Below, one piece after another: positions 5,682 through 16,990 of a stretch of DNA of 64,000 nt. Numbering within the stretch: position 1 is the stretch's first letter; every line of letters begins with the position of its first letter. The stretch is from a virus (taxonomy: Duplodnaviria; Caudoviricetes): the IMG/VR virus record IMGVR_UViG_3300021514_000002, positions 1 through 64,000 of that record. The stretch is one strand, 5' to 3'. The translations under genes and the position numbers were made by a program. The notes under the pieces were generated by a model. That model ran no database searches and was not told where the DNA came from. It saw nothing but the letters and a program-made list of their open reading frames with translations.

Positions 5682-5768
5682 TGGCAGGTCGTGAGGGATT
5701 CGAACCCCCAATATCCTTACGGAAGCTGGTTTTGGAGACCAGTGCGATGCCAGTTACGCGAACGACCC
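5682..5768 (-). tRNA. tRNA-Trp(CCA) with long variable arm
   Basis: CTGGT-CTCCAAA-ACCAG followed by a 16-nt variable region with TCC-GTAA-GGA hairpin. Confidence 0.85.
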
Positions 5769-8066: not shown

Positions 8067-9092
8067 TTATTTTAATTGATTGACAATCATTTGTTTACCG
8101 TATCTCCAATGATCACCAGTATTAATATGGTCTTTACGAACAAACTTACCAGTTTTAAACCTAAATTGGCTCATTGGAAATGCATCCGCAACACGAACAA
8201 CATATCCTTCATGATCATCATACATGGAATCGTTCCATAAGTCAATAATTAAATCTTGGTCAAAGATGCCATCGTAAAGTACCGGAACGTGTTCAATGTC
8301 TACATGTAAGATTGCAAACCATTCACGCGTTTCGTCCCATGATAAGCATTCATTCTTTTCATTCCAAATGGAAAAACCATAAAAATAAGAAGAAAGATCT
8401 TTATAGGGTATAGAATGTTCCGCATACATATTTTCGCCACATACGCGCCAATCTTCTGGTATTTCAAAATTGAAGTTCGCCCAAAAGTTTTTAACCCACG
8501 CACGACTAATATCACCACCACTATCAACAGAACGCGCATGAACATGGTCGCTATACATTGTGGTATTTTCACCATCCAATTTTTCCGTTACGATAACGCG
8601 CTGACCATTGAATGCGTCAATATTAGGCATCATTCGGTCATCATCGTGCATACCTTGTGACCATGGTAAATGGTAAGTTCTTGGGTATTTTACGTAGCCC
8701 GTGAACAAAGACAGTACACCACCTTTTCCAAGTATTTTCTGAACACTTTCGTCAAAAAACAGTTCACCTTTTAGGCGCTGTGTATTTGGTAACACAATGT
8801 TTCCCCACTTGTCGTAGATTTGATCACCGTACAAGTGTGGTGGTATAATTGGTTTTAGTATTCGACACGCTTCACGAACTTCTTCAACCGATATGGTTGT
8901 CATTTCACATGCAAGATGATGCTCTCCACAAACGGAAGCACCATTGTTTAAATAATATCCATAGTCAGGCCATAATCTACGCTCTATGATGTGATGCGCA
9001 TCGACTGCGGGTTCATCACAAAAAACACAAATATGGTTATCGCGTTCAAAAACACCTTCACGGAATTCATCACGCGACAGTAGTTTGTTCAT
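8067..9092 (-). CDS. HNH domain fused to an Rnl2-like RNA ligase
   Basis: N-terminal CxxC, DAHHI, CGEHH; ligase KYPRTYHLP, TEKLDGEN, EGYVVR. Confidence 0.8.
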   Translation of the reverse strand: MNKLLSRDEFREGVFERDNHICVFCDEPAVDAHHIIERRLWPDYGYYLNNGASVCGEHHLACEMTTISVEEVREACRILKPIIPPHLYGDQIYDKWGNIVLPNTQRLKGELFFDESVQKILGKGGVLSLFTGYVKYPRTYHLPWSQGMHDDDRMMPNIDAFNGQRVIVTEKLDGENTTMYSDHVHARSVDSGGDISRAWVKNFWANFNFEIPEDWRVCGENMYAEHSIPYKDLSSYFYGFSIWNEKNECLSWDETREWFAILHVDIEHVPVLYDGIFDQDLIIDLWNDSMYDDHEGYVVRVADAFPMSQFRFKTGKFVRKDHINTGDHWRYGKQMIVNQLK

Positions 9093-10752: not shown

Positions 10753-10830
10753 TGGTGCCCCCAGTCGGATTCGAACCGACACGTAACTAAGGTTTGAGCT
10801 TAGCCCCTCTGCCAATTGGGGTACGGGGGC
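10753..10830 (-). tRNA. tRNA-Leu(CAA), short variable region
   Basis: CTAAG-CTCAAAC-CTTAG, A73, CCA. Confidence 0.85.
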
Positions 10831-10859
10831 AAAATTGTAGAAATTGGTATGACAGTACG

Positions 10860-10945
10860 TCCATTGCTCTACCACTGAGCTACTTCTCCGAAAAAGGATT
10901 TGGTGGAGAAGGCAGGGATCGAACCTGCGACCGATGGTTTAAAAG
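10860..10945 (-). tRNA. Circularly permuted tRNA-Lys(TTT): 3' half (10901-10945) precedes 5' half (10860-10889)
   Basis: Halves reassemble into a 75-nt Lys cloverleaf with 7-bp GGAGAAG/CTTCTCC acceptor and ATGG/CCAT anticodon stem. Confidence 0.8.
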
Positions 10946-10979
10946 TTAGAAGGAAGTCAATACCATAGCTACAAAATTT

Positions 10980-12023: not shown

Positions 12024-12113
12024 TGGCGGAAGATGGGAGATTCGAACTCCCGTGCCGTTTTACTGACCACCTCATTTCCAATGAGGGACGATTAGCCTCT
12101 CTGTCAATCTTCC
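12024..12113 (-). tRNA. tRNA-Ser(GGA)
   Basis: CCTCA-TTGGAAA-TGAGG, long variable arm, G73. Confidence 0.9.
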
Positions 12114-12859
12114 AAAAATTTGTTTGTTTTATAAGATGTTTCAATGCGTTCCTTTGCGATATTAAAGTACTTATCTTCCAGTTCAATACCAATAAAATTT
12201 CTACTTGTATTTAGCGCAGCACATCCCGTACTACCACTTCCCATTGTATTATCAAAAACTGTATCACCTTTATTAGTATATGTCAATATAAGATATTCTA
12301 ATAAAGCTACTGGTTTTTGAGTGGGATGTAGGCTACTTTTCTGCTTATCCGTAGGGAACACCTGAACACTTCTTGGATATCGTTCAGTAGACCCACCACC
12401 GCTGATTCCTTGCTTAGTTTTTCCGTAAATTTCACCATCAGATTGATGTTTAGTATAACTATTCACTGGCTTGTGCCCAGTAGTCATTTGTGGGTTATAA
12501 GTAGGCAATTTGTCATAAAAGACCAATATATTTTCATGGGCTTTCATCGGCATCTTCTTAGCGTTTAGATGACCAGTAGATGTTGTTTTTTCCCATATCC
12601 ATTCGTACCGAAGCATTTTAAGGTTACTAGAACCTAAAACTTTATCAAATGGTGTTTGTGCGAATAGAACAATAGGACTGTTAGGTTTTGTAACCCTTTT
12701 ATACTGTTCCCACAGTTCTTCAAGGTTTATTGTAGAATCCCATGAACAGTTAGTTGTTCCATATGGGAGATCGCAAAGAATCATATCAACGGATTTATCA
12801 GGTATATGAATTTTCATTGCTGATATGCAATCGCCGTGCAATAGTGTAGGATTTTTCAT
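12104..12859 (-). CDS. N6-adenine/N4-cytosine DNA methyltransferase (beta class)
   Basis: DLPY catalytic motif, HPTQKP, MGSGSTG. Confidence 0.85.
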   Translation of the reverse strand: MKNPTLLHGDCISAMKIHIPDKSVDMILCDLPYGTTNCSWDSTINLEELWEQYKRVTKPNSPIVLFAQTPFDKVLGSSNLKMLRYEWIWEKTTSTGHLNAKKMPMKAHENILVFYDKLPTYNPQMTTGHKPVNSYTKHQSDGEIYGKTKQGISGGGSTERYPRSVQVFPTDKQKSSLHPTQKPVALLEYLILTYTNKGDTVFDNTMGSGSTGCAALNTSRNFIGIELEDKYFNIAKERIETSYKTNKFLED

Positions 12860-12903
12860 TAAATGAGTTTAACATAACACAAATGAAAAATCAAGAATAG
12901 GAA

Positions 12904-12995
12904 TTGTAGAAATCGTAAAGACTAAAACCGGATTGCTTTGCAAGCAATCTTGGTATCGAACCAAGAATAGAAGGAAGTCTATTACATAGCTACAA
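12904..12995 (-). ncRNA. Second copy of the permuted-tRNA flanking motif, enclosing a T-arm and a GCA anticodon arm
   Basis: Shared TTGTAGCTATG..GACTTCCTTCTA and GTC..ATTTCTACAA arms with compensatory changes. Confidence 0.7.
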
Positions 12996-12997
12996 TT

Positions 12998-13092
12998 TGG
13001 CGGAAGCTGAGAGGATCGAACTCTCACGTCATGTCACCATGACCATTTGTTTTCAAGACAACGCCCGTCGCCAGCCGTCGGGTGGAGCTTCC
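12998..13092 (-). tRNA. tRNA-Ser(TGA)
   Basis: Loop CTTGAAA, long variable arm, G73, CCA. Confidence 0.85.
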
Positions 13093-16907: not shown

Positions 16908-16990
16908 TGGTACGCCCGGTGGGAGTCGAACCCACAAAAGTCTACGGTCTAAACGTAGTAGCTGTGCCAATTTACATTAACCACAGGCGC
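16908..16990 (-). tRNA. tRNA-Leu(TAG), short variable region, enlarged D region
   Basis: CTACG-TTTAGAC-CGTAG, CCA. Confidence 0.8.

What the first reader, a model, noticed from the sequence alone, without database searches (positions are those of the whole stretch)
12904..12995. Second copy of the clamp motif, enclosing a T-arm plus Cys anticodon-arm mini-RNA
Seen: same 5' arm TTGTAGCTATG-TAATAGAC-TTCCTTCTA and 3' arm GTC-TTTACG-ATTTCTACAA as at 10835-10974. Pairing is kept by compensatory changes (GGTA/TACC to GTAA/TTAC; TGAC/GTCA to AGAC/GTCT), the bulged T is conserved, and a G-U pair favours the minus strand. The unpaired TTCCTTCTA is invariant and 7 nt precede GTC in both copies. The cargo is CTTGG-TTCGATA-CCAAG (T arm) followed by GATTGC-TTGCAAA-GCAATC (GCA anticodon arm), again in permuted order. 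Inference: a reusable RNA-processing cassette (ribozyme or enzyme recognition site) that excises or circularises tRNA-like cargo, here a roughly 38-nt tRNA mimic.
Basis: partly seen in the sequence, partly recalled or inferred. Interest (0 to 1): 0.85.

Follow-up and report, generated by a model that had tools for sequence, protein, structure and literature searches.

The report
Y-like small RNA carrying tRNA mimic
The "clamp" is the conserved handle of a widespread small RNA family, absent from Rfam, that sits beside one Ro60-like ring protein in bacteria and giant phages. This copy displays the top half of a tRNA in its loop, so it looks like a new relative of the Ro60/Y-RNA particle, not an RNA-cutting cassette.

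Summary
12903-12996 (minus strand) and 10834-10975 share a bipartite stem, compensatory changes and an invariant UUCCUUCUA.

They are two of four copies in this 363-kb phage. They belong to a large structured-RNA family that has no Rfam 15 model. Its layout is a 7-bp stem, a CUAU/RNUUU internal loop, an 8-bp stem closed by C-G, and a loop that starts UUCCUUCUA and holds a variable insert.

Covariation is strong: 93% of cells pair, against 42-54% in slid controls. The RNA lies beside, and on the same strand as, a ~740-aa protein:
- in 78 of 80 bacterial loci fetched by protein similarity alone;
- in 77 of 80 viral loci fetched the same way.

The protein has a Ro60/TROVE-like helical ring, a TerD domain and a RING-like finger. 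This phage encodes it at 73.85-76.09 kb, with two RNA copies directly upstream.

The insert of this copy is a T arm stacked on a closed 7-bp acceptor-like hairpin, not a Cys anticodon arm.

Best reading: a Y-RNA-like partner RNA whose handle binds the protein and whose insert is a tRNA-mimic effector module. Nothing supports excision, circularisation or a ribozyme.

The scan reached the same Ro-like reading earlier on other genomes.

The parts
12903..12996 (-). Whole small RNA, copy B (94 nt): handle plus tRNA top-half insert
   Evidence: Model R1 57.6 bits, E 4.8e-13 (this copy was in the seed). Sequence, segmentation.
12990..12996 (-). Outer stem, 5' strand (AUUGUAG); pairs with 12903-12909
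   Evidence: Family covariation at 6 of 7 pairs.
12986..12989 (-). Conserved internal-loop strand CUAU; in the family, the G-G closing the outer stem plus CUAU are near invariant (GGCUAU)
   Evidence: Column counts: C121, U118, A119, U116 of 121 bacterial copies.
12977..12985 (-). Inner stem, 5' strand GUAA-U-AGAC (bulged U at 12981, closing C at 12977)
   Evidence: 7-8 of 8 pairs covary in the family.
12968..12976 (-). Invariant single-stranded UUCCUUCUA at the 5' end of the loop
   Evidence: UUCCUUCU is invariant or nearly so in 121 bacterial copies.
12949..12965 (-). T-arm mimic CUUGG-UUCGAUA-CCAAG (G53-C61-type closing pair, UUCGA T loop)
   Evidence: Read from the sequence. Unique in the genome.
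12932..12948 (-).
   Evidence: Same layout as the closed acceptor stem of YrlA-like inserts in other members.
12923..12931 (-). Loop 3' end CCGGUUUUA; the family's loops end in YUA before the closing G
12915..12922 (-). Inner stem, 3' strand GUCUUUAC
12910..12914 (-). Conserved internal-loop strand GAUUU (family: R-N-U-U-U)
12903..12909 (-). Outer stem, 3' strand CUACAAU
10834..10975 (-). Copy A (142 nt): same handle. The insert is a permuted, YrlA-like tRNA mimic: T arm, 7-bp acceptor with ACCA and an 11-nt linker, D arm, anticodon-like stem.
   Evidence: R1 44.4 bits, E 3.1e-9. Rfam YrlA 36.9 bits, below the gathering score of 69, model positions 23-89 only.
12998..13092 (-). tRNA-Ser(UGA), ending 1 nt upstream of copy B; its 3' processing would set the 5' end of the RNA (inference)
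10753..10830 (-). tRNA-Leu(CAA), starting 3 nt downstream of copy A; RNase P cleavage there would set copy A's 3' end (inference)

Best explanation
12903-12996 (minus strand) encodes a roughly 94-nt small RNA of a large family that Rfam lacks. I read this family as the dedicated RNA partner of a ~740-aa protein built from a RING-like finger, a Ro60/TROVE-like helical ring and a TerD domain. The phage encodes that protein at 73,853-76,093, outside the window, with two canonical RNA copies directly upstream. Shown: family membership; a strongly covarying two-helix 'handle' with near-invariant GGCUAU / RNUUUCC and C-UUCCUUCU...YUA-G elements; near-obligate same-strand adjacency of RNA and protein gene in bacteria and phages; and the Ro60-like fold of the protein. 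Inferred: the handle is the protein-binding module, as the bulged stem of Y RNAs binds Ro60, and the loop insert is an exchangeable effector module. In this copy the insert is a T arm coaxial with a closed 7-bp acceptor-like stem, a tRNA 'top half'. It could recruit or occupy T-loop/acceptor-recognising enzymes such as RNase P, the CCA-adding enzyme, TruB/TrmA or repair ligases, as proposed for YrlA. The RNA is probably co-transcribed with the tRNA array and freed by processing of the abutting tRNA-Ser. The particle probably works in surveillance or repair of tRNA and other structured RNA during infection.
For: Family and structure. The handle recurs in many phage contigs with different stem sequences. 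On 18 seeds, 95% of cells pair against 46-51% in slid controls, and 13 of 15 pairs show compensatory change. On 116 distinct bacterial copies fetched by protein similarity only, 93% pair against 42-54%, and 14 of 15 pairs are compensatory. The phage has 4 copies; five other jumbo phages have 6-8 each.

Linkage to the protein. The RNAs directly flank one ~740-aa protein in 11 of 24 pattern-fetched loci. Among 80 bacterial loci fetched by protein, 78 have at least one hit; 120 of the 121 hits are on the gene's strand, right before or after the gene. Among 80 viral loci, 77 have hits, and all 296 are on the gene's strand. All five RNA-bearing phages tested encode a homologue, though one has only a TerD fragment.

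The protein. The AlphaFold model has pLDDT 91.6. The TerD domain scores Z 14-17. Eight Ro60/TROVE PDB entries score Z 10.9-13.1 over 310-343 residues, above generic HEAT proteins, which align only ~100 residues. The helical domain alone aligns to a TROVE cluster at TM 0.61 over 280 residues.

Context. The gene order 'two RNAs then the gene', with a sigma70-like promoter ending 6 nt before RNA 1, matches phage phiLo Yrl1-Yrl2-Ro60 (PMC12135203). In Variovorax the gene sits divergently from RtcR; RtcR controls rsr-yrlBA-rtcBA in Salmonella (PMC4201824). tRNA-like inserts matching YrlA's tRNA domain recur in about 5% of copies in both bacteria and phages. RNA ligase genes lie near both RNA sites in this phage.
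Against: No binding or expression data exist for any member. No RNA run holds the window, and the lay on a Brevibacillus relative was uninformative. Pfam TROVE does not match the protein, and helical repeats can reach Z of about 13 by arrangement alone (note). The Y-RNA motif GNCGAA is absent. Copy B lies 63 kb from the protein gene, and the closest relative contig (L030) lacks it, so it may be dispensable. Direct abutment to tRNAs is not the family rule: 2 of 231 starts. The function of the particle is argued by analogy only.
Confidence: 0.65

Rival explanations
1. Processing cassette: the paired leader and trailer are a ribozyme or nuclease/ligase site that excises or circularises the tRNA-like cargo. 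For copy A this would make a permuted tRNA-Lys(UUU).
For: Copy A and its homologue in L030 hold all tRNA arms in permuted order, with an encoded ACCA and a CUUUUAA heptamer in register for an anticodon loop. Rnl2-type RNA ligase genes lie nearby.
Against: Most members have no structured cargo at all. No ribozyme family matches at E up to 10. There is no bulge-helix-bulge junction. The conserved nucleotides travel with a protein gene. Copy B has no acceptor end or D arm, so it cannot become a tRNA. The phage already has tRNA-Lys(UUU) twice, tRNA-Lys(CUU) and tRNA-Cys(GCA). Anticodon-loop-like heptamers occur in only 3 of 7 tRNA-like inserts examined by eye. In bacteria the acceptor stems are closed by tetraloops.
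Confidence: 0.07
2. Free-standing decoy or sponge, independent of the protein. The tRNA-like insert would distract host tRNA-targeting nucleases, or the pyrimidine motif UUCCUUCU (anti-Shine-Dalgarno-like; also identical to the stem/loop junction of tRNA-Arg(UCU) anticodon arms) would titrate an RNA or protein.
For: UUC-CUUCUAA is the anticodon stem/loop sequence of ordinary phage tRNA-Arg(UCU) genes (e.g. L010; T4 tRNA-Arg). The orphan copies sit in the tRNA array, far from the protein gene. Several inserts carry GGA-rich loops complementary to the motif.
Against: The motif is invariant in phyla with very different translation signals, and also in copies downstream of the gene. It is not flanked by a stem that would present it as an anticodon loop. 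Genome-level co-occurrence with the protein is near total.
Confidence: 0.1
3. Cis-regulatory element: an autoregulatory leader, attenuator or terminator for the adjacent genes, not a trans-acting RNA.
For: Many copies lie in the 5' leader of the protein gene. The long hairpin of the 76-kb copy is followed by a U-rich run. The hairpin in copy B's insert plus CGGUUUUAGU scores as terminator-like.
Against: Copies also lie downstream of the gene, in tandem arrays of up to nine, and as orphans inside tRNA arrays. Inserts are modular and tRNA-like. The terminator-like hairpin has only 3 G-C pairs, and the conserved 3' arm lies beyond it.
Confidence: 0.08
4. DNA-level element: inverted repeats of a small mobile element, or a single-stranded-DNA hairpin used in replication or recombination.
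For: It is an imperfect inverted repeat enclosing variable DNA. Copy B plus tRNA-Ser(UGA) is absent from the syntenic relative L030.
Against: Strand bias is absolute relative to the partner gene: 416 of 417 hits. A conserved U.G wobble and many G.U pairs would be A.C mismatches on the other strand. A promoter is placed at the 5' end. No transposase is linked.
Confidence: 0.03

Closest known systems
Bacterial and phage Y RNAs with Ro60/Rsr: YrlA and YrlB of Salmonella and Mycobacterium (Rfam RF02553), Yrl1/Yrl2 with Ro60 of Thermus phage phiLo
   Same: The 5' and 3' ends pair into a long stem with a conserved internal loop. The loop holds an exchangeable module, which in some copies is a permuted tRNA mimic (T arm, closed acceptor stem, D arm) that aligns to YrlA's tRNA domain. 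There are one to several RNA genes on the same strand next to a ring-protein gene, with short and tRNA-like forms side by side. One bacterial locus has RtcR next door. RNA ligases are nearby.
   Different: The partner protein does not match Pfam TROVE and carries a TerD domain where Ro60 has vWA, plus an N-terminal RING-like finger. The RNA lacks the GNCGAA(N)G / GGUCCGA motif and instead has GGCUAU...UUCCUUCUA. YrlA scores stay below Rfam's gathering score and cover only the tRNA-like part; copy B gives no Rfam hit at all. Most members (~65 nt) have no tRNA-like domain.
Circularly permuted tRNA genes (Cyanidioschyzon merolae type)
   Same: In copy A, though not in copy B, the 3' half precedes the 5' half, and leader and trailer pair.
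   Different: There is no bulge-helix-bulge motif and no splicing endonuclease. The same clamp encloses non-tRNA inserts in most members. Copy B has only a T arm and a closed stem. Ordinary tRNA-Lys and tRNA-Cys genes are present.
Phage T4 stable RNAs rnaC and rnaD (species 1 and 2) in the tRNA cluster
   Same: They are small stable non-tRNA RNAs encoded within a phage tRNA array and abutting tRNAs. rnaC contains a T-arm-like hairpin.
   Different: There is no UUCCUUCUA handle and no sequence similarity. No linked Ro-like gene is annotated in the 8-kb stretch read.
Two-piece (permuted) tmRNA
   Same: For copy A only, a weak Rfam match covers T arm, acceptor, CCA, linker and 5' acceptor strand (22.8 bits).
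   Different: There is no tag reading frame and no pseudoknots, and the score is below threshold. This does not apply to copy B.

Membership tests
   Copy B 57.6 bits and copy A 44.4 bits, both over the full model. All elements are present. Copy B has an extra bulged U in the inner stem.
   The gene lies at G000 73,853-76,093(-) with two RNA copies directly upstream. Copy B itself is an orphan 63 kb away.
Y RNA / YrlA (Rfam RF02553; Chen et al. 2014) | Reaches Rfam's gathering score for YrlA | tested here: not met
   Copy B: no hit at E up to 10. Copy A: 36.9 bits against 69, positions 23-89 only.
Y RNA / YrlA (Rfam RF02553; Chen et al. 2014) | GNCGAA(N)G motif near the 5' end (candidate Rsr contact) | tested here: not met
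   The 5' arm reads UUGUAGCUAUGUAAUAGAC with no GNCGAA. The motif definition comes from PMC4201824.
Y RNA / YrlA (Rfam RF02553; Chen et al. 2014) | Encoded near, and on the same strand as, a TROVE-domain (Ro60) gene | tested here: not met
   PF05731 is absent from this phage and from five other RNA-bearing phages. The linked protein is only TROVE-like by fold.
Y RNA / YrlA (Rfam RF02553; Chen et al. 2014) | Terminal stem plus internal tRNA-like domain with T and D arms | tested here: inconclusive
   The terminal stem is present. Copy B has a T arm and an acceptor-like stem but no D arm. Copy A has both arms.
Circularly permuted tRNA gene | Complete cloverleaf recoverable by joining the ends; bulge-helix-bulge at the junction | tested here: not met
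   Copy B lacks a D arm, an anticodon stem and a free acceptor end. The clamp is 7 bp / 4x5 loop / 4 bp / 1-nt bulge / 4 bp, not 3-nt bulges around a 4-bp helix.
Known self-cleaving ribozymes (hammerhead, twister, twister-sister, pistol, hatchet, HDV-like, hairpin; Rfam 15) | Match to a family covariance model | tested here: not met
   There was no hit at E up to 10 on copy B, nor at E up to 1 on 16 loci with arrays. A new ribozyme class cannot be excluded by this test.
Ro60 / TROVE protein family (for the partner protein) | Sequence match to Pfam TROVE (PF05731) with a C-terminal vWA domain | tested here: not met
   There is no PF05731 match. The C-terminal domain is TerD, Z 14-17.
Ro60 / TROVE protein family (for the partner protein) | Ring of HEAT-like helical repeats superposable on Ro60 | tested here: met
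   Eight Ro60/TROVE PDB entries score Z 10.9-13.1, with 310-343 residues aligned at rmsd 4.2-5.0 Å. Foldseek probability is 0.99-1.00. The Atlas TROVE cluster gives TM 0.61 over 280 residues. This is similarity at fold level; homology is not proven.
NCBIfam NF041916 MXAN_6230/SCO0854 RING-domain family (partner protein) | Score at or above the curated equivalog cut-off (600 bits) | tested here: not met
   470 bits over residues 10-724: a related subfamily, not an equivalog.

The most novel reading that the evidence does not exclude
The handle RNAs and the RING/TROVE-like/TerD protein form a second, undescribed Ro-type ribonucleoprotein found across about ten bacterial phyla and in jumbo phages. 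Its RNAs act as programmable adaptors. In this phage lineage one adaptor (copy A, with encoded ACCA and a linker) would be opened by RNase P into a two-piece, possibly chargeable tRNA-like cofactor. Copy B would present a bare acceptor/T minihelix. Together they would tether tRNA-processing or repair enzymes to the ring, to rescue or police tRNAs under host nuclease attack.
Probability: 0.12. Interest if true: 0.88.

Novelty: new variant of a known kind. Interest (0 to 1): 0.7.

Why it matters
Ro60 with its Y RNAs is the only known ring-protein/adaptor-RNA system for RNA quality control. A second, sequence-unrelated RNA family paired with a Ro-like ring that has TerD in place of vWA would show the design is more general. 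This second pair is found in hundreds of bacterial species and many giant phages.

It would also give function-unknown proteins (NF041916 relatives, PHROG 33734) a testable role. And it would explain the tRNA-like non-tRNA genes scattered through phage tRNA arrays.

For annotation, these elements should not be called permuted or broken tRNAs.

Tried and rejected
- **Near-identical phage DNA:** none found in INPHARED.
- **Exact clamp pattern in IMG/VR:** no hit; looser patterns were needed.
- **Rfam:** only sub-threshold YrlA, tmRNA and tRNA pieces on copy A, and nothing on copy B. The YrlA model aligned over a full-length member fits the tRNA-like part but not the stems.
- **T4 rnaC/rnaD:** checked as possible relatives; no handle found.
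- **Literature:** searches for UUCCUUCUA, Prok-RING/TerD/Ro60 and SCO0854/MXAN_6230 found nothing relevant. The Burroughs and Aravind 2016 RNA-repair paper is not held.
- **Protein sequence searches:** a PDB profile search found nothing, and PADLOC gave no hit.
- **Other conserved neighbour genes in 80 bacterial loci:** none beyond the RNA and the protein.
- **Origin of the inserts:** they are not recent copies of the phage's own tRNAs.
- **Expression of the window:** no RNA holder is listed for it.
- **Expression in a relative:** three RNA-seq runs labelled with the species of a Brevibacillus homologue were laid on L231. The reads were only 90-95% alike, shallow and on both strands. They covered the RNA and the start of the gene but defined no ends, so the result is uninformative.
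- **Permuted tRNA-Lys reading of copy A:** rejected as the main reading because normal tRNA-Lys genes exist and because of the family context.
- **Complex prediction:** not used, since it takes proteins only.

Full report
**The observation**

The window is the first 64 kb of a 363,531-bp viral record. It carries 31 tRNA genes, all on the minus strand. On that strand, 12996-12903 reads AUUGUAG-CUAU-GUAAUAGAC-UUCCUUCUA-[44 nt]-A-GUCUUUAC-GAUUU-CUACAAU. Coordinates 10975-10834 have the same plan with GGUAUUGAC / GUCAUACC and a 92-nt insert.

The exact arm words occur together only at these two places.

Folding energy does not choose a strand: z is -3.7 for the minus strand and -3.4 for the plus strand. 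Strand assignment therefore rests on wobble pairs and on context, described below.

**A family, not a pair**

Two degenerate pattern scans of IMG/VR recovered many elements. They share the conserved words but have different, still complementary stems, and they often stand in tandem arrays (scripts 23, 26, 27, 33).

An 18-sequence alignment (A2) gives this consensus:
- a 7-bp stem ending G-C, G-C;
- CUAU opposite R-N-U-U-U;
- an 8-bp stem closed by C-G;
- a loop that starts UUCCUUCUA, holds 8-100 variable nucleotides and ends YUA.

In that alignment 95% of cells pair, against 46-51% when partners are slid, and 13 of 15 pairs change on both sides. Those seeds were selected partly for pairing, so I repeated the count on an independent set (below).

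The covariance model R1 finds four copies in this genome:
- copy B, 57.6 bits (in the seed);
- copy A, 44.4 bits (not in the seed);
- two more at 76,120-76,217 and 76,230-76,299.

R1 also finds 6-8 copies in each of five other jumbo phages and 74 copies in the pattern-fetched loci. Rfam 15 has no model for the family. There is nothing on copy B at E up to 10. On ten phage loci and six bacterial loci, nothing overlaps the RNAs except sub-threshold YrlA hits on members with tRNA-like inserts.

**The partner gene**

I clustered the ORFs of the RNA-bearing loci. One ~740-aa protein turned up next to the RNAs in 11 of 24 loci, on the same strand, with gaps of a few to some tens of nucleotides.

In this phage the gene lies at 73,853-76,093 (minus strand). 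The two extra RNA copies sit directly upstream of it. A TTGACA-17-TAATAT promoter-like site ends 6 nt before the first RNA.

The protein has more than 2,000 homologues, some on bacterial chromosomes. I fetched loci by protein similarity alone, which is blind to the RNA:

| Set | Loci with at least one R1 hit | Hits (E below 0.01) | Hits on the gene's strand |
|---|---|---|---|
| Bacterial species, many phyla | 78 of 80 | 121 | 120 |
| Viral contigs | 77 of 80, by my reading of the table | 296 | 296 |

- The bacterial hits lie just before or just after the gene.
- The two bacterial loci without a hit are cut by contig ends.
- The bacterial set covers Bacillota, Pseudomonadota, Bacteroidota, Planctomycetota, Verrucomicrobiota, Chloroflexota, Acidobacteriota, Cyanobacteria, Saccharibacteria and others.

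On the bacterial set, 93% of cells pair against 42-54% for slid partners. Fourteen of 15 pairs show compensatory change, and one position is a conserved U.G wobble. Together with the strand bias, this fixes the functional molecule as RNA of the UUCCUUCUA strand.

No other gene is conserved beside the pair. All five RNA-bearing phages tested encode the protein, though one incomplete genome shows only a TerD fragment.

**What the protein is**

Sequence libraries say little:
- a weak Prok-RING_4 match at residues 121-151 and no Pfam TROVE match;
- PHROG 33734, function unknown;
- NCBIfam NF041916 (MXAN_6230/SCO0854 RING family) at 470 bits, below its 600-bit cut-off;
- nothing in PADLOC and nothing in a PDB sequence-profile search.

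The AlphaFold model from 72 homologues is confident, with pLDDT 91.6 and pTM 0.86. Residues ~507-690 form a TerD domain (Z 14-17).

The helical part aligns to every Ro60/TROVE structure in the PDB. These include Xenopus, human and Deinococcus Ro60 and the Thermus phage phiLo Ro60. They score Z 10.9-13.1 over 310-343 residues. Generic HEAT proteins rank below them and align only ~100 residues.

The helical domain alone matches an ESM-Atlas cluster that is 98% Pfam TROVE, at TM 0.61 over 280 residues. I call the protein Ro60-like by fold. Homology is plausible but not shown.

**Comparison with Y RNAs**

Bacterial Y RNAs have three features (PMC4201824):
- a terminal stem with a GNCGAA motif;
- often a tRNA-like domain;
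- a position next to the Ro60 gene.

Phage phiLo has Yrl1 and Yrl2 upstream of its Ro60 gene (PMC12135203). The present system copies that layout: RNAs next to a ring-protein gene, short and tRNA-like forms together, and in Variovorax the regulator RtcR divergently upstream. It does so with a different RNA signature and a different C-terminal domain.

The tRNA-like inserts (T arm, closed acceptor stem, D arm, anticodon-like stem) occur in about 5% of copies in both bacteria and phages. They align to the tRNA part of the YrlA model, while the stems do not align.

**This copy**

Copy B's insert is CUUGG-UUCGAUA-CCAAG, a T arm. The hairpin AUUGCUU-GCA-AAGCAAU follows it with no spacer. That is the geometry of T stem plus 7-bp acceptor stem, closed by a triloop. 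There is no D arm.

The same 'T arm plus hairpin' insert recurs in other phages, for example L065, L067 and L068. I therefore read it as a tRNA top-half (minihelix) mimic displayed on the handle.

Copy B begins 1 nt after tRNA-Ser(UGA), and copy A ends 3 nt before tRNA-Leu(CAA). tRNA end-processing would therefore release both; this is inference. Such abutment is not general in the family.

The syntenic contig L030 keeps a copy-A homologue, also with ACCA plus a linker. It lacks copy B and the adjacent tRNA-Ser. The inserts are not copies of the phage's own tRNAs.

**Why not a processing cassette or a permuted tRNA**

- Most members have nothing to excise.
- No ribozyme model matches, and there is no bulge-helix-bulge junction.
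- The phage has ordinary tRNA-Lys(UUU) twice, tRNA-Lys(CUU) and tRNA-Cys(GCA).
- Bacterial tRNA-like inserts have closed acceptor stems.

The open ACCA-plus-linker acceptor of copy A and its L030 homologue remains a lineage-specific oddity. I keep it as the basis of the novel case.

**Limits**

No binding, expression or end-mapping data exist. The public runs holding the window are DNA only. RNA-seq reads from a different strain of a Brevibacillus carrier were too divergent and too shallow to define an RNA. The function of the particle rests on analogy with Ro60/Y RNA, on the RtcR neighbour in one genus and on nearby RNA ligase genes.

**Earlier notes of this scan**

Other agents reached the same Ro-like/Y-like reading on other genomes, and first readers noted the 76-kb pair of this genome. 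I saw those notes after deriving the reading independently, and I tested the shared claims here.

Noticed in passing
L238:2843-3276 (+), Saprospiraceae MAG: A GOLLD RNA (Rfam RF02032, 171.6 bits, above its gathering score) lies about 470 nt upstream of two handle RNAs and the TROVE-like/TerD gene.
   Followed up: no
G000 252271-252344 and 252952-253023 (outside the window): ARAGORN calls two tRNA genes with anticodon CUA as 'Pyl'. They are amber-suppressor-type tRNAs and may bear on the in-frame amber codons that other notes report in this phage.
   Followed up: no
G000 72028-72642 (-), outside the window: A second RNA ligase gene (PF09414, 204 aa) sits between the TROVE-like/TerD gene and tRNA-Lys(UUU) 71935-72020. 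The order is therefore promoter, two handle RNAs, ring protein, ligase, second tRNA block.
   Followed up: partly
window 12104-12859 (-) and G000 76344-77108 (-): N6/N4 DNA methylase genes (PF01555) lie next to copy B and next to the 76-kb RNA pair. A homologous methylase sits in the syntenic contig L030 without copy B. This is probably coincidence.
   Followed up: partly
window 8067-9092 (-): A 341-aa protein has an RNA_ligase domain (PF09414, E 5e-30) 1.7 kb downstream of copy A, inside the tRNA array.
   Followed up: partly
window 12931-12949 (-): The acceptor-like hairpin of copy B followed by CGGUUUUAGU scores as a weak intrinsic-terminator-like site (8 pairs, 3 G-C).
   Followed up: no
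window 16911-16990 (-): Rfam tRNA hit (36.2 bits) that ARAGORN does not call. Several tRNAs in the array are unusually long, for example tRNA-Met 2344-2433 (90 nt) and tRNA-Trp 5682-5768 (87 nt).
   Followed up: no
L220:3023-4675 (-), Variovorax: RtcR (a sigma-54 activator with a CARF-type domain) is encoded divergently from the ring-protein gene, and two handle RNAs lie ~400 nt downstream of that gene. No RtcB Pfam hit is on record for the called genes of the locus.
   Followed up: partly
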